A DNA stretch of 64,000 nt from an uncultured bacterium. GTDB lineage: Bacteria; Hydrothermota; Tepidihabitantia; SM23-42. The position numbers and the translations under genes were made by a program. Shown piece by piece: positions 6,863 through 49,848 of this stretch. Each line of letters starts with the position of its first letter. The first letter of the stretch is position 1. The notes under the pieces are model-generated. The model worked only from the letters and a program-made list of their open reading frames with translations. It was not told where the DNA came from and made no database searches. The stretch spans positions 28,284 through 92,283 of the forward strand of contig CAYQPW010000008.1 of NCBI GenBank assembly GCA_964419565.1, in the 5' to 3' direction.

Positions 6863-7951
6863 TTAACCGATGATCAAACTGAATATCGCTCCGCTCAAAA
6901 TTAAAAATATTGGTTCAATTTTGAGCAAAAGTAAGATTATTAAAATTATCAGGCCAAAAATTCCATAAGGTACATTAACCCAATTTAAAAGGACAAAACT
7001 AATCCCCGTAGATAGTAAGATAGCTACAACCGCAGATTTAATACCAGTAAAAAAGGACATAACGAATTTATTATTACAGATCCTTTTGTAGATTTTAACC
7101 AGGACAATCAACATAATAAAAGAAGGAATGAAAATGCAGAATGAAGCTATGATCGCACCCGGTATGCCCATTACTTTTAAACCGACAAAGGTCGCCGTTA
7201 TCGCTACCGGTCCCGGGGTCATTTGGCCTAATGCCATGCCGTTAAGAAATTCTTGGGGAGTGAGCCAGGTTCGAGTAGTGCAGACCTCGTTTTTAATAAA
7301 AGGTATAGCTGCATAACCGCCGCCAAAGATAATCGCGCCTATTTTAAGGAATATCGCAGCTAAAGTGAGCGCCTTTTTCGGTTCAAATACGAATAATGGA
7401 ACAGCAAGCAAGCAGCGCTCGACATTTTTGACATAATCTAACATGACTCTAAGAAAACCACAGAGAAGAACCGTGAAGATAGGGTCAAATTTTACTAAGA
7501 AAAGTACTAAAGCGAAGAAGAAAATAATAAGACCCTTAATATCTTTAATAAGAACCTTGCCCATATCATATGCAGCCCAGAGAATTATCGATGTCATGAC
7601 TGCGCTAATCCCTTTAAATATTTGTGCAACTCCTGGCAGTGACTGGTAAGTAAGATAGAACCATGATAGAATTACCATAAGAACGAAAGAAGGCAGGAGT
7701 AAGGCGATCGCGGCGATCGCCGCTCCTTTCATCCCGAATAGGTGATATCCTATATATTCACAGTAATTCGGGATGAAAGGACCTGGTAATATCTGTCCCA
7801 TTGCCACTGCCGTACAGAGATCATCGTCGTCTATCAATTTTTTCTTTTTTACACATTCATTCCGTAGAATAGCAAGCATGCCAATACCACCACCAAACCC
7901 AAAAAGGCCAACTTTAAAAAGGGCTTTTGCTAAATCTTTAAGGGTTTTCAC
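6863..7951 (-). CDS. chrA: Chromate ion transporter (CHR) family protein with two CHR repeats
   Basis: Duplicated CHR signatures: FGFGGGIGMLAILRNE...GQILPGP and FGGGYAAIPFIKNE...WLTPQEFLNGMALGQMTPGPV. Polytopic and hydrophobic. Confidence 0.85.
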   Translation of the reverse strand: MKTLKDLAKALFKVGLFGFGGGIGMLAILRNECVKKKKLIDDDDLCTAVAMGQILPGPFIPNYCEYIGYHLFGMKGAAIAAIALLLPSFVLMVILSWFYLTYQSLPGVAQIFKGISAVMTSIILWAAYDMGKVLIKDIKGLIIFFFALVLFLVKFDPIFTVLLCGFLRVMLDYVKNVERCLLAVPLFVFEPKKALTLAAIFLKIGAIIFGGGYAAIPFIKNEVCTTRTWLTPQEFLNGMALGQMTPGPVAITATFVGLKVMGIPGAIIASFCIFIPSFIMLIVLVKIYKRICNNKFVMSFFTGIKSAVVAILLSTGISFVLLNWVNVPYGIFGLIILIILLLLKIEPIFLILSGAIFSLIIG

Positions 7952-34824: not shown

Positions 34825-35904
34825 CTAGCGCGGTACTCTGAAAATAAGGACAATACCAACGATACCAAAGAGCATATTGGGAAACCAGGCAGCTAGAAAG
34901 GGGTCTATTAAACCCGCGACTCCATAAGCACGACATGACTGTATGAGGCCCCAATAAGTAAAGGCAAGAGCAACACTTATGCCCAGTCCTATGGCAATAC
35001 CTCCCTTTTTTAATACCACAGAAAGAGGAAGGGTTATCAGGAGGATTATCAGCGTGATTATCGGGTAGGAAAAACGATAATTCAGTTCCACCTCTTCTTT
35101 TGCTACGTTTTCACCGCCCCTTGCTCGCTTCTGGACAAACCGGTAGATCTCTATAAAATTCATTTCTTCAAGCGGCTTTATTCTTTTTAAAAAATCTTCT
35201 GGTTTTTCCTGTAATTCCGGCATTTCCAGAACTTTGTAGGACTTTACAGTTTCATTTCCCTGGTCATCGAATTCACGGAACGTTGCTTCGCTGAATTTCC
35301 ATGAGCCGTCATAGATCGCAGCATCAGCATCGATCCTCTTTTTAATCTTATTTTCCCGAGAGATCTGCCATAAGATAACGACATTGATTCTCTGTGTTGA
35401 AGAATCAAATTTTTTGATGAAATAGATCCAATTATTCTCACCATTATAGAAAAAATTACTTCGAGTGTTCTGTGGTCGCTTGGGCCGCTTGTCGATTTTC
35501 TCCTGTTGGTGCGTGAACAACTGTGCGTGGGACCAGACCCCCACGGTTTCCTGAAAGACAAAGGTCAGTAAACAGATCACGATCCCGGCGAAAAGGATCA
35601 AGTAAAAAAGGCGATTCGTATTCAAACCGCACGTTTTCAAAGCGACCATTTCCTTATTTTTGGTCATAATCCCAAAAACAAAAAAGACCGCCATTATCGA
35701 CGCGACCGGAATGAGAAGCACAATATAAGACGGAGTCAGGTATAAATAATAGATGAGGATATCTTTTGCTAGAGCATCTTTGACCAGAAATTTCCCCAGA
35801 TTATCAAACAGGTTTATGATTATATATATGAATATTAGGACAGCGAGACAGATAAACAGATACTTTACGAAATTTCTAAGTACATAACGGTTAATGACTT
35901 TCAT
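34825..35904 (-). CDS. LPS export ABC transporter permease, LptF/LptG (YjgP/YjgQ) family
   Basis: MKVINRYVLRNFVKYLF..., the typical YjgP/YjgQ N-terminus, with 6 TM segments and a periplasmic beta-jellyroll insert. Confidence 0.85.
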   Translation of the reverse strand: MKVINRYVLRNFVKYLFICLAVLIFIYIIINLFDNLGKFLVKDALAKDILIYYLYLTPSYIVLLIPVASIMAVFFVFGIMTKNKEMVALKTCGLNTNRLFYLILFAGIVICLLTFVFQETVGVWSHAQLFTHQQEKIDKRPKRPQNTRSNFFYNGENNWIYFIKKFDSSTQRINVVILWQISRENKIKKRIDADAAIYDGSWKFSEATFREFDDQGNETVKSYKVLEMPELQEKPEDFLKRIKPLEEMNFIEIYRFVQKRARGGENVAKEEVELNYRFSYPIITLIILLITLPLSVVLKKGGIAIGLGISVALAFTYWGLIQSCRAYGVAGLIDPFLAAWFPNMLFGIVGIVLIFRVPR

Positions 35905-37148
35905 TTTAATAATTTTCTAAAAGGAGATCTCTCGTATTCGGCGAGCAGAAATAAATATACGCCAGAGACAAAAAGCACAATATTGGGCAACCACATCGCC
36001 CAGTAAGGCGAAAAGCCGCGGCGATCAGCAAATTCCTCGCCGGCTAGGATAAGGATGTAATAGGAAGAAAACAACAGGATGCCGATAAGTACGCCGGCGA
36101 TCCCGCCACGACGGAAAAGATAACCTAAGGGCGCACCGATCAGGACAAAAAGGATACAGGCGACAGCTAATGAGAATTTTTTATTGAACTCAACGATATA
36201 TCGAGAAACCCTTCTCTCTTTGCCCTTTATAACGTTTATTTTTTTCTCGATCTTAAAACGCGCGGCATCGAGGTTGCTGACATTACCATTAACGAATCCG
36301 GTAATCGCCTCACTGCCAATGGCGGCTATTTCATCATTTAAAACCGCGATCTCTTTTCTCGCTTCGTCAATTTTCGCCCGAAGTCCAAAGACATTCAACT
36401 CATTTTGATTCCGGCTTGTTCGTTCTTTTCTTATGAGTTCAGTATTTACCGCCATGTTAATTGTCTGTTTGCTGAAATCTGTTTTCTGGTATTTGATCTC
36501 ATCGATAAGCTGGTGTAATTCACCATTGTAGAGAGTGAATTGAAGTATGCCCTCATCTTCAAAATCATTAAGATCCCCGTTGGGCGCGGTCATCATCAAA
36601 TTATTACGAAGATCATAGATCGTAATATCATAGAGTTTCGAACGATGTTCGTCTTTTCTACCTACATAAACCATATAACCGGGAAACTCATTTGTAAAGA
36701 CACCTTCAGGTAATCTTATCGCTGGTCTTTTACGCGAGACATCGAGCATAAGATTCCTTACGCGATGGTTAGATTCTGGGAGAATGAAGCTGTTGAAAAA
36801 GATAAGAAAGAGCATAAAAATAAGAGTAGCTATTAAAGGCGTCTTCATGAGCGAAAAGAAAGTCTGACCACTGACCTTTAGAGCGAGAATTTCATTGTCC
36901 TGGGCAAAGCGTCCGAAGGTCATGACGATAGCGACAAGAATCGCCATTGGTGCAGTATAAGAAATGATCAAGGGCAGTGTATAGACGAGTATCTGACCGA
37001 CGATGTCAAAAGGTAGGCCTTTTCTTACAAAAAGATCAATAAGGCGGAACAGTTGATCCATCAGCAGGATAAAGGTTAACGCGATCAAAGAAAAAAAGAA
37101 AGGGGGTATGAACTCGCGAAGGAAATAGCGGTCTATTAATCTATTCAA
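35901..37148 (-). CDS. LPS export ABC transporter permease, LptF/LptG (YjgP/YjgQ) family
   Basis: MNRLIDRYFLREFIPPFFFSL..., a paralog of the downstream gene. The 4-nt overlap suggests translational coupling. Confidence 0.85.
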   Translation of the reverse strand: MNRLIDRYFLREFIPPFFFSLIALTFILLMDQLFRLIDLFVRKGLPFDIVGQILVYTLPLIISYTAPMAILVAIVMTFGRFAQDNEILALKVSGQTFFSLMKTPLIATLIFMLFLIFFNSFILPESNHRVRNLMLDVSRKRPAIRLPEGVFTNEFPGYMVYVGRKDEHRSKLYDITIYDLRNNLMMTAPNGDLNDFEDEGILQFTLYNGELHQLIDEIKYQKTDFSKQTINMAVNTELIRKERTSRNQNELNVFGLRAKIDEARKEIAVLNDEIAAIGSEAITGFVNGNVSNLDAARFKIEKKINVIKGKERRVSRYIVEFNKKFSLAVACILFVLIGAPLGYLFRRGGIAGVLIGILLFSSYYILILAGEEFADRRGFSPYWAMWLPNIVLFVSGVYLFLLAEYERSPFRKLLK

Positions 37149-44253: not shown

Positions 44254-44736
44254 TTAGAAAGCTGCTGTACAGTACCAGTAGTCGGGTTTCGGAACGTCCG
44301 TTGTTTGTTGTGAAACGTTCTGAATTTCCAATCTGCCGTCGCTTGACACGACCCTGAAATAACAGGCGCCGATCGGTATTTCTCCAAAGAATATCTTCAG
44401 GTAATAATCACCTAATACGTACGGACCAAAAACTTCAACGGAATAAGCGGTAATTCCTAATTGACCAGTGAATTCGATTTCAGTGCGAAGACTTGCTCCT
44501 TCATAGAACTCGTGATACAAAGGCAGGTCTTTTTCGAATCGATCGGTAAAATCTATTTGCATACGTACGCCGCAGAGGTTGCCATAGATATCGTAATAGG
44601 CAGCGGAAACCCAGGTATCCCATATATGTGGAGGTGCCATGAAATCATCGCTATGAATGTCAAACAAATTGGTTCTTTCACGGCAGCTTAACAGACAGAG
44701 TATCATAATAGGTAATATATAAGAAAAGCGCTTCAT
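44254..44736 (-). CDS. Hypothetical lipoprotein, cassette copy 2 (paralog of 45311..45754)
   Basis: Lipobox LLSC followed by RERTNLFD...DDF.APP.I, and C-terminal FGEIPIGACYFRVV. It shares these motifs with the other copy. Confidence 0.65.
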   Translation of the reverse strand: MKRFSYILPIMILCLLSCRERTNLFDIHSDDFMAPPHIWDTWVSAAYYDIYGNLCGVRMQIDFTDRFEKDLPLYHEFYEGASLRTEIEFTGQLGITAYSVEVFGPYVLGDYYLKIFFGEIPIGACYFRVVSSDGRLEIQNVSQQTTDVPKPDYWYCTAAF

Positions 44737-44745
44737 CTTATCTCC

Positions 44746-45159
44746 TCAAAGAATCGTTTTGATGCCTAATGACAATTTATTTCGGTAAGAATACTGGAAA
44801 TCAAATGTTGGTGTGTGCTTTGCTGATTTTGATGCCTTAACATGCTTCAGTTGATAATACAGCGCCCGCAACGTAAATACCACTGCACCGACTGCGCAGA
44901 TATTCCTTAGATTATCATAGCGTATTGTTTTATCCCAGTTTTCAATTGAGCTTCTTATTGAATCACTATAAATATAATCCTCGTACGCTTTTTTACCAAG
45001 GGTGTGGAAAATGCCTGTGCCGATCCCGAATCCAATACCAACAAAACCATTCAACAATACTTGTTTTGTGTAGCTCTTTGGTTTTACGACATTAGCCTGT
45101 TGTATTAAGGTATCAGCAGAGGTATTAAAACAAAATACAAAGATCAGTAAATGTGTCAT
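44746..45159 (-). CDS. Hypothetical small membrane/secreted protein, cassette copy 2 (paralog of 45764..46180)
   Basis: Shared motifs with the paralog: NGF..G.GI..GIFH, AY.DY, ENW..T, DN.RNICA.GAV.F, R.LYY..K, FDF.Y. Own promoter TTGACA-16-TATACT (45203..45176) and SD AAGGGGG. Confidence 0.65.
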   Translation of the reverse strand: MTHLLIFVFCFNTSADTLIQQANVVKPKSYTKQVLLNGFVGIGFGIGTGIFHTLGKKAYEDYIYSDSIRSSIENWDKTIRYDNLRNICAVGAVVFTLRALYYQLKHVKASKSAKHTPTFDFQYSYRNKLSLGIKTIL

Positions 45160-45310
45160 TTTTCCCCCTTATCTCAGTATAATATTAAGAAACCCGATGT
45201 CAACCATGATCAATCAAATGTCCGTGCGGATCTTACTGCCCGATAATAAAATTGCGATTGGCTTGTGATTATTTATTAACTGATAAGATTACTGTATTGT
45301 TTATACGTAA

Positions 45311-45754
45311 TTATTCTGCGATCGGCTTGATGACCCTGGCGCCATTATCATCTACAATCGCAAAGGTTGCTGCACCGATCGGTATGCCGCCAAAATAGAC
45401 AGTCAAACAAAAAAGCCCGATATCATACGTGGCATATACATCCCGGTCATAGATACGATCACCATAATTCATCCGAACGTCAAAACTTGTCATCTCAGTC
45501 TTTACACTGTCGACAAATTCATAGAGTATATTATGTAAAATAGTTTCTTTTTCAAATTCTTCAACGAAATTTACAGTAAAATGAACGCCGATCAAAATCC
45601 ACTGCTCATTATATATCGCTGAATCAGCAAGCGCGGAAAAGATAGCTGGAGGCGGTGTAAAATCATCACAGCCCGGATCGAACATATTGTCTCGTTCCCG
45701 GCACCCCGCCAGTAAAAGCAATAGCATTCCGAGGATTTTAACATTAGATCTCAT
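45311..45754 (-). CDS. Hypothetical lipoprotein, cassette copy 1
   Basis: Lipobox LLAGC followed by RERDNMFDPGCDDFTPPPAI, and C-terminal FGGIPIGAATFAIV. Confidence 0.65.
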   Translation of the reverse strand: MRSNVKILGMLLLLLAGCRERDNMFDPGCDDFTPPPAIFSALADSAIYNEQWILIGVHFTVNFVEEFEKETILHNILYEFVDSVKTEMTSFDVRMNYGDRIYDRDVYATYDIGLFCLTVYFGGIPIGAATFAIVDDNGARVIKPIAE

Positions 45755-45763
45755 ACGATATCC

Positions 45764-46180
45764 TCACAACGCTTTTTGTATGCAGAACACCCATTTTGAA
45801 GTATCGATATATTTGAAGTCGAACAAGGACGGTGATTTGAGAGCGTCAGATTGTTTTGTCTGCCTGTTTTTTATGTGATAATACAAGGTTCGAGCAGCAA
45901 ATAAAACAGCTCCGCCAGCACAGATATTGCGTACATTATCATTGAGTTTTGTTCTTTCCCAGTTTTCGACCGCCTCAGCGACGGTCGTGCTATTTTGATA
46001 ATCAGTATAAGCGTGATTGCCGCGGAGATGAAAGATACCGGCTGTGATGCCAAGTCCAGCACTTAGAAAACCGTTGATAATAACCTGTCTAGAATGAGTC
46101 TTGCGCAATACTCGTTGATCGACTTTCAAGCTGTCATTATTTAGATTAAAAAAACAAAGAATGAGCATGCACTGCGCCAT
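45764..46180 (-). CDS. Hypothetical small membrane/secreted protein, cassette copy 1
   Basis: ATG 46180 is preceded by GGAGG; the track start at 46183 is a TTG. Promoter TTGACT-16-TATACT (46226..46199). See the paralog motifs at 44746..45159. Confidence 0.65.
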   Translation of the reverse strand: MAQCMLILCFFNLNNDSLKVDQRVLRKTHSRQVIINGFLSAGLGITAGIFHLRGNHAYTDYQNSTTVAEAVENWERTKLNDNVRNICAGGAVLFAARTLYYHIKNRQTKQSDALKSPSLFDFKYIDTSKWVFCIQKAL

Positions 46181-46284
46181 CAAACCTCCATTCGGTCAAG
46201 TATATATCAGTAAATCGTGAAGTCAAGACCAAGCTGAGATTAACGAATGAGTTGAAATCCAATACAGGACAGATATAATGACGA

Positions 46285-46971
46285 ATGATCGGGGTAATCG
46301 CAAATACCATGCTTGTTCTTGTCGGTAGCGTGATAGGACTTATTCTAAAAAAAGGTATCCCTGAAAATATAAAGAAATCCATTATGACAGGCCTAGGTCT
46401 TTTTACATGTGTCCTCGGCATGAAATTCGGGCTCGAGCTGAATAACGGTCTGGTCGTTGTATTGAGTATTATTACCGGCGGTGCACTCGGTCAATTGATC
46501 GGCATTGAAGAAGGTATTGAAAGACTCGGTCTAAAACTAAAGAAACTAATAAATACACAAGATAAGGGTCTTTTTGCTCAAGGTTTTGTATTCGCCAGTC
46601 TGCTCTTTTGTATCGGACCTATGACCGTGCTCGGTTGTGTCCAGGCTGGTCTGGGAAATAACCCGGAACTTCTCTTTATTAAATCATTAATGGACGGCGT
46701 GTCGGCGATCATCTTAGCATCCTCTTTTGGCATAGGCGTGCTTTTTTCAGCACTTACGGTTCTTTTTTATCAGGGGGGATTGGTCTTGCTTGCCGGTCAG
46801 ATGGGTTTCTTAACGATACCTAAATACTTAAATGATTTTACGAGTGTCGGCGGGATAATAATCTTCAGTATAGGTATCAAATTATTAGGGCTCAAGCCGA
46901 TAAAAAGCGGAAATTTTTTGCCAGCTCTGGTCTTAGTTATTTTGATTACTTTTTTGATGAGCATCATTTAA
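46285..46971 (+). CDS. DUF554-family membrane protein (YqgA/YdfK-like)
   Basis: MIGVIANTMLVLVGSVIGLILKKGIPE...MTGLGLFTCVLGMKF, the typical DUF554 N-terminus. Polytopic. Confidence 0.7.
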   Translation: MIGVIANTMLVLVGSVIGLILKKGIPENIKKSIMTGLGLFTCVLGMKFGLELNNGLVVVLSIITGGALGQLIGIEEGIERLGLKLKKLINTQDKGLFAQGFVFASLLFCIGPMTVLGCVQAGLGNNPELLFIKSLMDGVSAIILASSFGIGVLFSALTVLFYQGGLVLLAGQMGFLTIPKYLNDFTSVGGIIIFSIGIKLLGLKPIKSGNFLPALVLVILITFLMSII

Positions 46972-46976
46972 TTATC

Positions 46977-47004
46977 TTGACTAAATAGATTTTCCATTTA
47001 TAAT
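46977..47004 (+). promoter_or_regulatory. Sigma70-type promoter for the riboswitch and TonB-dependent receptor transcript
   Basis: TTGACT (46977..46982), a 16-nt spacer, then TATAAT (46999..47004). Confidence 0.5.
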
Positions 47005-47011
47005 ACTCCAG

Positions 47012-47182
47012 GTTGGTGGATCCAAGGGAAGCACCGTGAGAATCGGTCGCGGTCGCCGCCACTGTGATTCTTTGTAAGACTCTGATCACTTAAAGTCACT
47101 GACGTCCACACACTGATCTTATTAGTGTCGGGGTTGGGAAGACTGATTAGAGCAAGATAAGTCAGGAGACCTATCCATCAAC
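47012..47182 (+). promoter_or_regulatory. Cobalamin (B12) riboswitch
   Basis: Conserved elements in order: GGTGG, AAGGGAAGC, CGTGAGAATCGG, GCCGCCACTGTGA, GGGAAGA, and a B12 box AGTCAGGAGACCTATCC. Closing P1 is GTTGGTGGAT (47012..47021) with ATCCATCAAC (47173..47182), including one G-U pair. It sits directly upstream of a TonB-dependent receptor. Confidence 0.8.
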
Positions 47183-47218
47183 ATCGCGAGAAAATCCTTC
47201 GGACGAAAGGGGGTAATA

Positions 47219-49174
47219 ATGATACCTTTGGCTTTTCTTGTCATACTCATTGCTCAACCGATCTATGAACTGGATGAGATCGTCGTTACTGCTACGCGTT
47301 ATCCTGCAGCTTTACAGGATGTCGCATTAGCAACGATAGTCATTGATCGGGAAGAACTCGACGAGTTCAATCCATCGAGTCTCACGGATGTTTTACAAAC
47401 ATACGCTGGTACTGATACCAAAGATTATGGTGTTCCAGGGACAGTGTCGAGCATATCTATCCGCGGCATTCCATCGAATGGCACACTGGTGCTCATTAAT
47501 GGTCATCCATTGAACTCGATAACCGTGGGGATGGCCGATCTGAGTGCGATAAATCTCAGTACAATCGAGCGTATTGAAATCGTTAAAGGACCGGTTTCAA
47601 GCTTGTACGGCGCGAATGGTCTTGGTGGTGCAGTAAATATCATAACAACAAAAGGTTATAAAAAGCCTGAATTCAAAATGTCCTTTTGTCCATCAACGAC
47701 CGATATAGATGTTCCCTTACAATCAAGAGAATTCTTTGCCAAACTGGGTTTACCAGCAGGTAGAATGATCTTTGACATTGCCGCAACATACGGTGCTTCT
47801 GATGGTTTCAGAGAAAACAGTGAATATACCGGCTATTATCTAACAGGTTCACTCGGCTATGAACTCGATAATACAAAGTTCATATCATCGCTGGTTTATA
47901 GTAATAGAGAATACGGATTGCCCGGACCAATGCTTGCCGATTCTACTTCCTCTTCTTTACTCGACCATGAGAAAGATGAATACCTTTTAGGAGATATAAA
48001 CATTTCATGGAACTTTTTAGAGAATTTTGCATGGGATAATACTTTATTTGCGGATCGTCGTTTTATCAAGTATCATACCGCGTATACGGATCTAAGTCAG
48101 GATACGCTGGAGAGTGATTATGATTACCTGACCTATGTTGTTGGCGTCAATTCGATCGCTCATTTTAAAAGCGGTAGGACTGATTTGACGATCGGTATTG
48201 ATACCCACTTTGACACCCTGGAAACGACTGAGACCCATGAGCTGTCGCGCGATACAATTTGGAATGCTTCTTCACATAATATCGGCGCCTGGCTTGAATT
48301 CAAATACCGAATAAAACATATTATTCTTGCGCCGAGCCTGAGATATGACCGGAATTCAAGGTTTGGGAATTTCCTTTCACCTGGGGTAGGTCTTATCAGC
48401 CCGCTTATTGATAATCTCTGGATTAAATTATCTGCGGGCAAGGCCTTTCGTGCACCGACATTCAATGACTTGTTCTGGCCTAATGCTGGCAATCCAGATC
48501 TTAAACCAGAACATGGCTGGGCATATGAATTACGCTTTGAAAGTTCTCCTTCACCGACGCTCTTCGCAGCATTATCTTTGTTTGCACGTTCTGTAAATGA
48601 CCGGATAGCCTGGCTTCCGGGCGATAATAATATGTGGCAGCCGCAGAATGTTAACCATATTTCAGTTCGTGGTGTGGATTTCGAAATGAACAAACAGATC
48701 AATGATTTCACAAACATTTATCTTGAAGGGTCTTATTTACAAGCAAAACAGAGAAACAATGAGATTACCTATGATTTTTATGATTGGGTAGCTGATACAA
48801 GCCTTACAATTATTGAAGAAGTAAAAAGAGATGCTGCTTTTACCCCAAAATATACGGCTTCAGCAAGACTCCATTTCAGTTTACCTTATGGATATGATTT
48901 TAATATCGAAGGTTTGTACGTCGCTGCGCAGGTCAACTATTATGTTAGTTATGATGAATACCCTGATATAACGATGGATACTAAAACACTCGATTCCTAT
49001 ATAATGCTCAATATAGGTTTTAGTAAAAAGGTCTTGAATTACCTGAAACTATCAGTCGGTGCGAAAAATCTACTAGACAAAGACCATGCGAAACAATTCG
49101 GTAATAGTATGACCGACTTGGATTATCCGATGCCTGGACGCCTGTTCTTTGCCCGGATCTCCATGGATTATTGA
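47219..49174 (+). CDS. btuB: TonB-dependent receptor, probable vitamin B12/cobinamide transporter (BtuB-like)
   Basis: Plug domain with a TonB-box-like DEIVVTATR and IEIVKGPVSSLYGANGLGGAVNIIT. A 22-strand-type barrel that ends ...FFARISMDY with a terminal aromatic. The riboswitch context supports B12 specificity. Confidence 0.8.
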   Translation: MIPLAFLVILIAQPIYELDEIVVTATRYPAALQDVALATIVIDREELDEFNPSSLTDVLQTYAGTDTKDYGVPGTVSSISIRGIPSNGTLVLINGHPLNSITVGMADLSAINLSTIERIEIVKGPVSSLYGANGLGGAVNIITTKGYKKPEFKMSFCPSTTDIDVPLQSREFFAKLGLPAGRMIFDIAATYGASDGFRENSEYTGYYLTGSLGYELDNTKFISSLVYSNREYGLPGPMLADSTSSSLLDHEKDEYLLGDINISWNFLENFAWDNTLFADRRFIKYHTAYTDLSQDTLESDYDYLTYVVGVNSIAHFKSGRTDLTIGIDTHFDTLETTETHELSRDTIWNASSHNIGAWLEFKYRIKHIILAPSLRYDRNSRFGNFLSPGVGLISPLIDNLWIKLSAGKAFRAPTFNDLFWPNAGNPDLKPEHGWAYELRFESSPSPTLFAALSLFARSVNDRIAWLPGDNNMWQPQNVNHISVRGVDFEMNKQINDFTNIYLEGSYLQAKQRNNEITYDFYDWVADTSLTIIEEVKRDAAFTPKYTASARLHFSLPYGYDFNIEGLYVAAQVNYYVSYDEYPDITMDTKTLDSYIMLNIGFSKKVLNYLKLSVGAKNLLDKDHAKQFGNSMTDLDYPMPGRLFFARISMDY

Positions 49175-49252: not shown

Positions 49253-49513
49253 ATGTTCTATGTCTATTTAATAAGAAGCAAAAAGGACAAGAGATTATAC
49301 ACTGGTTATGCTAATGACCTTAAACGAAGATTCAATGAACATAATTCAGGTTTCAACAAATGCACCAAGGGACGTGGACCGTTTGAGCTGATGTGTTATG
49401 AAGCATATGAAGCCAAACAAGATGCAGTACATCGGGAGAAAATGTTAAAGCTTAGAGCAAAAGCTCTCGGTCAATTAAAAAGACGTCTCCAATATAGTCT
49501 GGATATTCCCTAA
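49253..49513 (+). CDS. Small GIY-YIG nuclease-domain protein (86 aa) encoded inside the rnpB P3 loop
   Basis: MFYVYLIRSKKDKRLYTGYANDLKRRFNEHNSG... carries the GIY-YIG hallmarks (YVY...YTG, R, EHN). Confidence 0.8.
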   Translation: MFYVYLIRSKKDKRLYTGYANDLKRRFNEHNSGFNKCTKGRGPFELMCYEAYEAKQDAVHREKMLKLRAKALGQLKRRLQYSLDIP

Positions 49514-49614: not shown

Positions 49615-49848
49615 ATGCATTATGTTTACATTTTTAAGAAACGGAATAATGAAGAGATCTATATCGGTTGTACGAACAATCTCAAGAGAAGATCTCGAGA
49701 ACATAATGTCCACGGTATGAAGTGGGATTTGATTTATTATCAAGCATACAAGGCGCGAAAAGATGCTTACTTACGGGAAGAAAGGCTCAAGTATTATGGT
49801 CAGGCGCTTGGTCAACTTAAGAGGCGCATTAAGAATAGCCTTGTATGA
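49615..49848 (+). CDS. Small GIY-YIG nuclease-domain protein (77 aa) encoded inside the rnpB P9 loop
   Basis: MHYVYIFKKRNNEEIYIGCTNNLKRRSREHNVHG... is a paralog of the P3-loop ORF. Shared motifs are NxLKRR, EHN and the C-terminal ALGQLKRR. Confidence 0.8.
   Translation: MHYVYIFKKRNNEEIYIGCTNNLKRRSREHNVHGMKWDLIYYQAYKARKDAYLREERLKYYGQALGQLKRRIKNSLV

What the first reader, a model, noticed from the sequence alone, without database searches (positions are those of the whole stretch)
44254..46226. Tandemly duplicated two-gene cassette of unknown function (small GxxxG-type membrane protein plus CRER-lipoprotein)
Two consecutive minus-strand units have the same architecture.

In each unit, gene A (138 and 137 aa) has a hydrophobic leader, a glycine-zipper-like NGF..G.GI..GIFH segment, then AY.DY, ENW..T, DN.RNICA.GAV.F, R.LYY..K and FDF.Y. 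Gene B (147 and 160 aa) lies 9-10 nt downstream. It is a lipoprotein whose mature end starts C-RER-x-N-x-FD...DDF..PP.I and which ends with FG.IPIGA..F..V.

Each unit has its own near-identical promoter (TTGACT-16-TATACT at 46226..46199 and TTGACA-16-TATACT at 45203..45176) and its own SD. By eye, identity between copies is only about 30-40%, so this is an old duplication with both copies kept intact.

I cannot assign either protein to a family I know. A conserved, duplicated pair of envelope proteins is a candidate for a two-component envelope module, for example an anchor plus partner or a toxin/immunity-like pair.
Basis: seen in the sequence. Interest (0 to 1): 0.6.

Follow-up and report, generated by a model that had tools for sequence, protein, structure and literature searches.

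The report
Duplicated membrane-hairpin plus lipoprotein gene pair
An uncultured sediment bacterium (WOR-3/Stahlbacteria group) carries two diverged tandem copies of a two-gene operon, a small membrane helical-hairpin protein followed by a lipoprotein with an Ig-like domain; the two genes are always adjacent in relatives and probably form an envelope complex whose role is unknown.

Summary
Four intact minus-strand genes form two paralogous A-B units: A1/A2 are 44% identical and B1/B2 34%. Each unit has a 9-nt A-B gap, its own Shine-Dalgarno sequences and a sigma-70-like promoter. The hexamers of the pair-2-type promoter are the only invariant upstream bases across eight diverged relatives.

No Pfam, NCBIfam, PADLOC, PHROGs or PDB sequence match exists for either protein. 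A models as a short leader, a long helical hairpin with a glycine-zipper helix, and a C-terminal beta-hairpin. It is a remote relative of DUF5683 proteins and of the C-terminal anchor of PEGA-domain proteins. B is a lipoprotein with a conserved tether (C-RER-x-N-x-FD...PPP) and a generic Ig/FN3-like sandwich.

In every locus examined, an A gene is followed directly by a B-type lipoprotein. A confirmed DUF5683 gene precedes an NHL-repeat lipoprotein that shares only the tether. A and B trees are congruent, so the whole pair duplicated within the lineage and was then differentially lost. dN/dS is 0.07-0.14.

Best reading: an anchor-plus-partner envelope module in which A docks B's tether. Toxin/immunity is disfavoured. 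Membrane, topology and physiological role remain unknown.

The parts
46199..46226 (-). Promoter-like site P1 (TTGACT-16-TATACT) upstream of A1
   Evidence: Scores 10/12 in the consensus scan. Both hexamers are invariant in four orthologous upstream regions.
45764..46180 (-). A1: 138-aa small membrane helical-hairpin protein (type 1)
   Evidence: ORF. 44% identical to A2. Scores 173 bits against the A-family profile. A GGAGG Shine-Dalgarno sequence and the ATG are conserved in orthologs.
45311..45754 (-). B1: 147-aa lipoprotein (type 1) with signal peptide and lipobox (LLAG-C18), conserved tether and Ig-like beta-sandwich
45644..45703 (-). B1 tether (residues 18-37, CRERDNMFDPGCDDFTPPPA), the most conserved segment of the B family
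   Evidence: Contains invariant or near-invariant C18, R19, E20, R21, D26, F32, P35 and P36. It is unstructured in the model, pLDDT 58-68. The motif is also present in partners of remote A-like proteins.
45176..45203 (-). Promoter-like site P2 (TTGACA-16-TATACT) in the 151-nt B1-A2 spacer
   Evidence: Scores 11/12. TTGAC and TAnAnT are the only invariant upstream blocks across eight diverged loci.
44746..45159 (-). A2: 137-aa small membrane helical-hairpin protein (type 2)
   Evidence: ORF. The AlphaFold model has helices 31-63 and 68-112 forming a hairpin (pLDDT 80-91) and a C-terminal beta-hairpin at 118-134 (pLDDT about 50).
44824..45069 (-). A2 helical hairpin (residues 31-112): glycine-zipper helix, conserved tip (AY.DY / NW / YDNLRN) and second hydrophobic helix
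   Evidence: Model, conservation and hydropathy. hhalign against the DUF5683 protein P0077 gives probability 93.9% and E=1.5e-7 over 65 columns.
44254..44736 (-). B2: 160-aa lipoprotein (type 2) with the same tether (C18-RERTNLFD...APP) and sandwich, plus a 16-aa C-terminal extension typical of type 2
   Evidence: ORF. 34% identical to B1. The type-2 clade of 158-164-aa proteins appears.

Best explanation
The region holds two paralogous copies of an obligate two-gene envelope operon.

Gene A encodes a small protein built around a long alpha-helical hairpin. Its first helix is a weakly hydrophobic glycine zipper and its second is a short hydrophobic helix, so the hairpin probably sits in a membrane. 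A short N-terminal hydrophobic leader precedes it and a basic C-terminal beta-hairpin follows.

Gene B is translated 9 nt downstream. It encodes a lipoprotein whose lipidated Cys is followed directly by a strongly conserved, unstructured tether (C-RER-x-N-x-FD...F-x-PPP), then a single Ig/FN3-like beta-sandwich.

Proposed mechanism (inferred): A is the membrane-embedded docking or oligomerising subunit. It binds the membrane-proximal tether of B and holds the beta-sandwich at a fixed place on the periplasmic face of a membrane. In trans, this is what the homologous hairpin does in cis at the C-terminus of PEGA-domain and DUF5683 proteins. The complex would be structural or organisational (envelope architecture or stability, or presentation of a binding domain), not enzymatic.

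The whole A-B unit, promoter included, duplicated within the Stahlbacteria-like lineage. The two copies diverged to 34-44% identity, and most descendants kept only one type while this genome kept both.

Shown: the genes, their paralogy, the promoter footprint, strict A-B adjacency, co-duplication, purifying selection, the fold predictions, and the remote link of A to DUF5683.

Inferred: physical A-B contact through the tether, which membrane is involved, the topology, and the physiological role.
For: 1. Strict linkage. With A- and B-family profiles, every full-length A hit in the fetched loci has a B hit directly downstream. This includes L018 and L031, where the flanking genes are unrelated. 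The gaps are 9 nt, or the genes overlap.

2. Remote A-like proteins behave the same way. P0067 and P0072 (library-wide E of 4e-5 and 5e-4) are followed by overlapping lipoproteins, SCRKHERNNPFDPGSPDFIPPP and GCENRIWENQYDPQSP.

3. A Pfam-confirmed DUF5683 protein, P0071, is followed by an NHL-repeat lipoprotein, SCNERIFNNPFDP. This lipoprotein shares only the signal peptide and tether with B (hhalign E=2.6e-5 over 31 columns). The tether, not the globular domain, therefore co-occurs with the hairpin gene.

4. Motif specificity. Among 43 distinct lipobox ORFs in about 370 kb of fetched loci, 13 carry N-x-[FYW]-D within 12 residues of the Cys. Twelve of those lie directly downstream of an A gene and the thirteenth lies next to an A pseudogene; 28 other lipobox ORFs have neither feature.

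5. Fused relatives. The A profile hits the C-terminal two-helix module of PEGA proteins (P0068, P0069) and of DUF5683 proteins with N-terminal beta-rich domains (P0076, P0077). The one fused protein examined has no tether lipoprotein downstream.

6. Co-evolution. A and B trees are congruent, so the pair duplicated as a unit.

7. Selection. dN/dS is 0.07-0.14 for all four genes.

8. Structure. The A hairpin core has pLDDT 80-91. The B sandwich has pLDDT above 93 with a disordered tether.

9. Cell type. The organism is a diderm: the window carries LptF/LptG and a TonB-dependent receptor.
Against: - No direct test of A-B contact was possible. No multimer prediction was available, and there are too few sequences for residue coevolution.
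- A's hydrophobicity is marginal. Family-averaged Kyte-Doolittle 19-residue peaks are 1.56 and 1.24, so true membrane spanning is not assured.
- Topology cues conflict. The C-tail has a net charge of +4.2, suggesting it is cytoplasmic. Fused relatives with N-terminal signal peptides suggest the opposite orientation.
- The link to DUF5683 is only transitive. None of 32 A-family members hits the Pfam model, even at E<=1.
- The loci were collected through A, and many are orthologs, so the adjacency counts are not independent events.
- P0073, a weak A-like hit, has no adjacent lipoprotein.
- The biological role is not indicated by any conserved third gene.
Confidence: 0.5

Rival explanations
1. 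Toxin/immunity or bacteriocin-like pair. A is a glycine-zipper membrane-perturbing peptide and B is its lipoprotein immunity factor. The tandem copies would be diversified cassettes.
For: - A is a small glycine-zipper protein with a lipoprotein encoded immediately downstream, and the cassettes are in tandem.
- A and B evolve faster than their flanking genes: against L012, A1 is 72% and B1 63% identical, versus 86-93% for neighbours.
- Pair types are present or absent in different relatives.
- A is inactivated in two MAGs.
- Glycine-zipper toxins exist (literature hit PMC12955049).
Against: - The pair keeps a fixed chromosomal slot between housekeeping genes, with vertical, congruent A and B trees.
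- No mobile element, secretion system, delivery domain or rearrangement hotspot is nearby.
- There are no PADLOC or PHROGs hits.
- dN/dS of 0.07-0.14 gives no sign of diversifying selection.
- A's hairpin is homologous to the C-terminal anchor of large multidomain envelope proteins (PEGA, DUF5683), which are not toxins.
- In L015 the B1 copy has also lost its ATG, so this is decay of the whole pair rather than a retained orphan immunity gene.
Confidence: 0.1
2. Split SlyB-like outer-membrane stabiliser. A's glycine-zipper hairpin inserts into the outer membrane and oligomerises into rings, and B supplies the lipid anchor and the beta domain. In SlyB/YfgH-type lipoproteins these parts are fused in one chain. 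This is a specific version of the main model that places the complex in the outer membrane.
For: - The parts list matches: lipid anchor, glycine-zipper helical hairpin and a beta-rich domain. SlyB/YfgH are described as outer-membrane transmembrane glycine-zipper lipoproteins that form oligomeric discs (bioRxiv 10.64898/2025.12.22.696046).
- The host is a diderm with LPS export genes.
- A and many relatives end in an amphipathic beta-strand with a terminal F/L/I, reminiscent of outer-membrane targeting signals.
- A's weak hydrophobicity is atypical for inner-membrane helices.
Against: - No family member has a Pfam hit to any glycine-zipper family, namely PF05433, PF13488 or PF13441.
- A's hairpin tip extends about 30 polar, conserved residues beyond the hydrophobic zone, unlike my recollection of the short SlyB loop. 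That recollection was not tested here.
- A has no clear signal peptide: no basic n-region and a hydrophobic run of only 9 residues.
Confidence: 0.15
3. Dedicated lipoprotein handling factor. A (and DUF5683-like hairpins generally) recognises the C-x-ER...N-P-F-D-P tether as a sorting, retention or surface-export signal, and acts transiently on its cognate lipoprotein rather than forming a stable structural complex.
For: - The tether sits at the position, directly after the lipidated Cys, where lipoprotein sorting or export signals lie in other bacteria. This rests on established knowledge of the Lol +2 rule and the Bacteroidota lipoprotein export signal, and was not tested here.
- The tether is conserved while the cargo varies between an Ig-like sandwich and an NHL propeller.
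- The motif is restricted to partners of A.
Against: - One handler gene per cargo gene, duplicated together with its cargo, fits a stoichiometric partner better than a catalytic sorter.
- A has no ATPase, no channel-sized domain and no link to Lol genes.
- Fused homologs argue for a permanent anchor role.
Confidence: 0.15
4. A and B are functionally unrelated small envelope proteins that merely share an operon.
For: No direct interaction data exist. Both folds are generic.
Against: - Adjacency with a 9-nt gap or overlap is kept from 100% down to about 25% identity and across unrelated neighbourhoods.
- The pair duplicated as a unit and the trees are congruent.
- The tether motif occurs only next to A-type genes.
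Confidence: 0.05

Closest known systems
DUF5683 (Pfam PF18935), an uncharacterised membrane protein family of Bacteroidota/FCB-type bacteria
   Same: Both have two hydrophobic helices joined by a conserved helical tip of the form N.AY..Y ... W/F..k...D..R/K. The A profile finds Pfam-confirmed DUF5683 proteins P0071 and P0077 at library-wide E of 9e-5 and 8e-4. hhalign of the A alignment against P0077 gives 93.9% probability. Many members of both groups end in a beta-hairpin with a terminal F or L. P0071 also has a tether-bearing lipoprotein downstream.
   Different: No A-family member reaches, or even registers against, the Pfam model. A lacks the N-terminal PGLGQ-type helix of DUF5683 (seen in P0071 and P0077). 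DUF5683 itself has no known function: one incidental literature hit only.
C-terminal membrane module of PEGA-domain (PF08308) envelope proteins
   Same: The A profile aligns to the last roughly 100 residues of P0068 (caspase + PEGA) and P0069 (5x PEGA), which have the same glycine-rich helix, N.AY.DY tip and second helix. The architecture is a beta-sandwich domain plus a hairpin anchor.
   Different: In those proteins the sandwich and hairpin are one polypeptide with an N-terminal signal peptide. Here they are two genes and the sandwich carries its own lipid anchor. B shows no sequence similarity to PEGA.
SlyB / YfgH-type glycine-zipper 2TM outer-membrane lipoproteins
   Same: The component list is the same: lipid anchor, glycine-zipper helical hairpin in a membrane, and an envelope location in a diderm (for the SlyB/YfgH description).
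   Different: No sequence or fold match was detected. The components are split over two proteins, and A has a long polar hairpin tip. This is an analogy only.
PilP-PilN/PilO (type IV pilus alignment complex) and GspC-type arrangements
   Same: From my own knowledge of these systems, not tested here: a lipoprotein whose disordered N-terminal segment binds small membrane-anchored partners, and whose C-terminal beta-sandwich domain is thereby positioned in the periplasm.
   Different: There is no homology. No pilus or secretion genes are nearby. A is a helical hairpin, not a bitopic ferredoxin-like protein.

Membership tests
DUF5683 (PF18935) | Match to the Pfam HMM at or above the gathering score (26.7 bits) | tested here: not met
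   None of 32 A-family members shows any DUF5683 hit, even at E<=1. A1 and A2 scanned individually also show none.
DUF5683 (PF18935) | Profile-level similarity of the two-helix hairpin to confirmed members | tested here: inconclusive
   The A profile hits confirmed members P0071 (E=9e-5) and P0077 (E=8e-4) in a 1.8-billion-protein library. hhalign gives 93.9% probability and E=1.5e-7 over 65 columns. This supports superfamily-level kinship, not family membership.
Glycine-zipper families (PF05433 Rick_17kDa_Anti/2TM, PF13488 Gly-zipper_Omp, PF13441 Gly-zipper_YMGG; SlyB-like) | Match to any of the Pfam glycine-zipper models, or fold similarity to SlyB | tested here: not met
Bacterial lipoprotein (Lgt/LspA substrate) | N-terminal basic n-region, hydrophobic h-region and a lipobox [LVI][ASTVI][GAS]C within about the first 25 residues | tested here: met
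   B1 reads MRSNVKILGMLLLLLAG-C18 and B2 reads MKRFSYILPIMILCLLS-C18. C18 is invariant in 26 family members. Residues 2-17 form a helix in the model. No SignalP or LipoP tool was available, so this rests on the sequence pattern.
PEGA domain (PF08308) | Sequence or profile match of B's sandwich to PEGA | tested here: not met
   No Pfam hit in 26 members. hhalign of the B profile against the 5x PEGA protein P0069 gives 0.3% probability.
Toxin-immunity / anti-phage defence cassettes | Match to known toxin, immunity or defence models; a delivery domain or secretion system; a mobile or hypervariable context | tested here: not met
   PADLOC and PHROGs give no hits. The pair sits in a conserved syntenic slot among IMPDH, methyltransferase, PHP-domain and TonB-receptor genes. 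dN/dS is 0.07-0.14. Toxicity itself cannot be tested here.
Tandem segmental duplication of an operon | Both genes paralogous in the same order and orientation; gene trees showing co-duplication | tested here: met
   Paralogy is shown. The A and B NJ trees are congruent, each with two clades that both contain a window copy, and single-pair L018 lies outside. Other genomes carry both pairs (L024, L015).

The most novel reading that the evidence does not exclude
The A/DUF5683-type helical hairpin is a dedicated membrane receptor for a previously unrecognised lipoprotein tether signal, C-x-E-R-x(1-4)-N-x-[FY]-D-(P). Hairpin-plus-tethered-lipoprotein would then be a general cargo-variable docking system of WOR-3/FCB-type diderms, carrying Ig-like sandwiches, NHL propellers and others. 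This would give DUF5683 its first function and define a new rule for positioning lipoproteins in the envelope.
Probability: 0.3. Interest if true: 0.6.

Novelty: new variant of a known kind. Interest (0 to 1): 0.35.

Why it matters
The practical gain is modest but concrete.

- It defines two unannotated protein families with no Pfam or NCBIfam model. About 40 A clusters and 27 B clusters were found in libraries of billions of proteins, essentially confined to uncultured WOR-3/Stahlbacteria-like bacteria.
- It shows that the two families are an obligate pair.
- It links A to the function-less DUF5683 family and to the C-terminal anchor of PEGA proteins.
- It points to a short, conserved lipoprotein tether motif as the likely docking element. 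That gives a testable first hypothesis for DUF5683-type proteins.

The locus is also a clean natural example of whole-operon duplication with promoter retention, followed by reciprocal loss among sister lineages.

It does not bear on a long-standing open question. No phenotype, ligand or pathway is implicated.

Tried and rejected
- Pfam and NCBIfam scans of the four proteins found only sub-threshold noise, such as Rhomboid_2, TMEM127, DUF3021 and LIC_12238 at E>0.03. Pfam scans of all 32 A and 26 B family members found the same.
- PADLOC and PHROGs gave nothing.
- PDB sequence profile searches gave nothing below E=0.3.
- The afdb50 fold library was unavailable.
- Literature searches for DUF5683, and for PEGA with lipoprotein, returned nothing relevant.
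- The metagenome scan with the broad A alignment failed for lack of a conserved block. It was repeated with the narrow alignment.
- Homology between B and the N-terminal beta domain of fused DUF5683 proteins, or PEGA, was rejected.
- The idea that C...N.FD is a lineage-wide lipoprotein feature was rejected, because 28 other lipobox ORFs in the loci lack it.
- An orphan-immunity reading of L015 was rejected, because its B1 copy has also lost its ATG.
- A conserved third partner gene was sought, but none is shared between the Stahlbacteria slot, L018, L020, L021, L023 and L031.
Full report
**1. Observation**

The minus strand of 44254..46226 carries four intact ORFs in the order A1, B1, A2, B2:
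- A1: 45764..46180, 138 aa
- B1: 45311..45754, 147 aa
- A2: 44746..45159, 137 aa
- B2: 44254..44736, 160 aa

Each B start lies 9 nt after the stop of its A. All four genes have purine-rich Shine-Dalgarno sequences.

The two units are paralogous. A1 and A2 are 44% identical (E=1e-25). B1 and B2 are 34% identical (E=4e-27).

They are the best minus-strand consensus hits in the region: 11/12 at 45203..45176 and 10/12 at 46226..46199.

I aligned the upstream regions of pair-2-type and single-pair A genes from eight diverged loci. The only invariant bases are TTGAC, TAnAnT (16-17 nt downstream), one base of the Shine-Dalgarno region and the ATG; everything else is scrambled. That is good evidence for a working sigma-70-type promoter. 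The A1 upstream region is 87% conserved in four orthologous loci. It shows that the ATG, not the upstream TTG, is the A1 start.

**2. Source organism and distribution**

Identical copies of the locus occur on sediment-metagenome contigs. The species-representative genome scan found relatives in only four MAGs, one of them titled Candidatus Stahlbacteria (WOR-3 group). Several metagenome hits come from White Oak River samples.

The window itself encodes LptF/LptG and a TonB-dependent receptor, so the host is a diderm with LPS.

Both families are tiny:
- The indexed search of 5.8 billion clusters found 13 A clusters and 27 B clusters.
- The exhaustive profile search of 1.84 billion representatives found 38 A hits at E<=1e-3, 24 of them at E<=1e-10.

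None carries a name other than "hypothetical protein". There is no Pfam, NCBIfam, PADLOC, PHROGs or PDB sequence match for any of the four proteins or for any aligned family member.

**3. Anatomy**

*Protein A.* The AlphaFold model of A2 was built with a 32-sequence alignment. It shows:
- a short N-terminal helix, residues 3-11 (the hydrophobic leader);
- a disordered stretch;
- a long helical hairpin, helices 31-63 and 68-112, with core pLDDT 80-91;
- a C-terminal beta-hairpin, residues 118-134, with pLDDT of only about 50.

Helix 1 begins with the glycine-zipper segment NGfvGiGfGiGtGiF. Helix 2 carries the second hydrophobic stretch. The polar hairpin tip carries the most conserved residues: AY.DY, NW and YDNLRN.

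Family-averaged hydropathy is only moderate, with 19-residue Kyte-Doolittle peaks of 1.56 and 1.24. The C-terminal tail has a net charge of +4.2 and the tip -0.8. A is therefore probably membrane-embedded, but neither the membrane nor the topology can be fixed from sequence.

*Protein B.* B1 models with mean pLDDT 88. It shows:
- a signal helix, residues 2-17, ending in a lipobox with invariant C18;
- an unstructured but highly conserved tether, residues 18-37 (C-RER-x-N-x-FD...F-x-PPP);
- an eight-strand beta-sandwich, residues 38-144, with pLDDT above 93.

**4. Linkage of A and B**

I searched all ORFs of the fetched loci with profiles built from the two family alignments. Every full-length A hit has a B hit immediately downstream. 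This includes:
- the syntenic Stahlbacteria-like loci;
- L018, whose A is 31% identical and whose flanks are unrelated: C11 peptidase and asparaginase on one side, and KsgA-, TatD- and MetRS-like genes (my reading of the translations) on the other;
- L019 and L020;
- L031, on a 483-kb contig with a different gene neighbourhood.

Two very remote A-like proteins, at library-wide E of 4e-5 and 5e-4, are also followed by overlapping lipoprotein genes. Their mature ends read SCRKHERNNPFDPGSPDFIPPP and GCENRIWENQYDPQSP.

No third gene is shared across these neighbourhoods. The conserved unit is the pair.

**5. Wider kinship of A and the tether motif**

The weak tail of the exhaustive A search contains three kinds of protein:
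- the C-terminal roughly 100 residues of PEGA-domain proteins: P0068 (caspase + PEGA) and P0069 (5x PEGA);
- Pfam-confirmed DUF5683 proteins: P0071 and P0077;
- a KSB1 protein with two tandem hairpins.

hhalign of the A alignment against P0077 gives 93.9% probability (E=1.5e-7, 65 columns) over exactly the hairpin. No A member reaches the DUF5683 Pfam model. I therefore call this superfamily-level kinship, not membership.

The informative case is P0071, a free-standing DUF5683 protein. Its overlapping downstream gene encodes a 240-aa lipoprotein, SCNERIFNNPFDP..., whose globular part is NHL-repeat-like rather than Ig-like. It shares with B only the signal peptide and tether.

Conversely, P0077 has a beta-rich domain fused in front of the hairpin. 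Its downstream gene is a signal-peptide caspase-like protein, not a tether lipoprotein.

In about 370 kb of fetched loci there are 43 distinct lipobox ORFs:
- 13 carry N-x-[FYW]-D within 12 residues of the Cys;
- 12 of those 13 lie directly after an A gene, and the thirteenth lies after an A pseudogene;
- 28 other lipobox ORFs have neither the motif nor an adjacent A gene.

These counts are not independent events, because the loci were chosen through A and many are orthologs. The pattern is nonetheless consistent: what travels with the hairpin gene is the tether, not a particular cargo domain.

**6. Evolution of the duplication**

NJ trees of A and of B are congruent. Both show:
- a type-1 clade: window A1/B1, L010, L012, L015;
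- a type-2 clade: window A2/B2, L015, L016, L017, L007, L013;
- single-pair L018 outside both clades.

The whole unit therefore duplicated inside this lineage.

| Locus | Pair content |
|---|---|
| Window genome, L024 | both pairs |
| L010, L012 | type 1 only |
| L017, L007, L013, L026 | type 2 or type-2-like only |
| L015 | losing type 1: A1 reduced to a 45-aa remnant, B1's ATG replaced |

Two histories remain open. Either the duplication predates L007/L013/L026, or type 1 simply evolved faster after a later duplication.

Against L024, dN/dS is 0.07-0.14 for all four genes, so both copies are under purifying selection. dS is above 1, however, so these values are rough.

A and B evolve faster than their housekeeping neighbours. 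Against L012, A1 is 72% and B1 63% identical, compared with 86-93% for IMPDH, the PHP-domain protein, DUF554 and the TonB receptor.

**7. Mechanism**

I commit to an anchor-plus-partner model. A is a membrane-embedded, probably self-associating helical hairpin. B is a lipoprotein whose membrane-proximal tether docks on A, fixing an Ig-like domain at the periplasmic face of a membrane. The same arrangement exists in cis in PEGA and DUF5683 proteins.

The steps that are shown:
- gene structure and the promoter footprint;
- obligate adjacency;
- co-duplication;
- purifying selection;
- the predicted folds;
- A's remote kinship to DUF5683;
- co-occurrence of the tether with the hairpin gene.

The steps that are inferred:
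- physical contact through the tether;
- which membrane holds the complex;
- topology;
- a non-enzymatic, structural role.

Confidence is about 0.5 for the complex and lower for the role.

Rivals:
- A split SlyB-like outer-membrane stabiliser. The parts list is analogous, but there is no sequence or fold match.
- A lipoprotein-handling factor that reads the tether as a sorting signal.
- Toxin/immunity, which is disfavoured by the fixed syntenic slot, vertical congruent trees, low dN/dS, the absence of delivery or mobile elements, and A's kinship to anchors of large envelope proteins.
- Mere co-transcription of unrelated proteins, which is disfavoured by the depth of the linkage.

**8. Novelty and verdict**

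Both proteins belong to unannotated, lineage-restricted families, and the pair as such has not been described in anything I could search. In kind it is a small membrane protein plus a lipoprotein partner, with generic folds and no implied pathway.

I rate it a new variant of a known kind, with moderate-to-low interest (0.35). The more interesting reading treats DUF5683-type hairpins as receptors for a new lipoprotein tether signal with variable cargo. It is not excluded, and I give it a probability of about 0.3.

Noticed in passing
L015:7193-7855 (MAG Candidatus Stahlbacteria JAUWCU010000012.1): The type-1 pair is decaying in this genome. A1 is reduced to a 45-aa C-terminal remnant ORF (7268..7405). 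The B1-type gene has an Ile codon where relatives have the ATG start, with a TTG two codons downstream. The type-2 pair next to it is intact, and the DUF554 gene is also missing here.
   Followed up: partly
L016:8001-8414 (MAG CBFDDH010000002.1): The only A gene of this locus has an in-frame stop at codon 63, where relatives have K, E or another sense residue, while the downstream B gene is intact. I did not resolve whether this is a real nonsense mutation, a population variant or an assembly error.
   Followed up: no
window 44254-46180 vs 46285-49174: Against L024, synonymous divergence of the four cassette genes (dS 1.16-1.53) is about twice that of the directly adjacent DUF554 and TonB-receptor genes (0.56-0.60). 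Possible causes are weaker codon bias, older or recombined alleles in the cassette, or saturation noise.
   Followed up: no
window 49253-49513 and 49615-49848 (+): Two small tandem GIY-YIG-domain genes (86 and 77 aa; Pfam E of 9e-18 and 2e-10) lie between the TonB-dependent receptor and the RecJ-like gene. Relatives L010 and L012 have an HTH_5/ArsR-like gene in this slot instead.
   Followed up: partly
window 34825-37148 (-): An adjacent LptF/LptG permease pair (Pfam E of 2e-76 and 2e-83) shows that the host exports LPS and is therefore a diderm.
   Followed up: partly
window 46252-46279 (+): A near-consensus promoter-like site (TTGAAA-16-TATAAT, 11/12) faces the DUF554 gene. The 104-nt A1/DUF554 intergenic region therefore holds two back-to-back divergent promoters. 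This region is 87% conserved among four relatives.
   Followed up: no
P0068 (577 aa) and L035:3389-5631: A caspase-like Peptidase_C14 domain recurs with the A-like hairpin. It is fused in one chain in P0068 (C14 + PEGA + hairpin). It is encoded directly downstream of the DUF5683 protein P0077 on L035. This suggests the hairpin anchors varied periplasmic modules.
   Followed up: no
L021:5218-5589: In this remote locus a third small gene (123 aa, no Pfam hit) overlaps the end of the B-like lipoprotein gene by 4 nt. This locus may therefore have a three-gene operon. The third gene is not seen in the Stahlbacteria-type loci.
   Followed up: no
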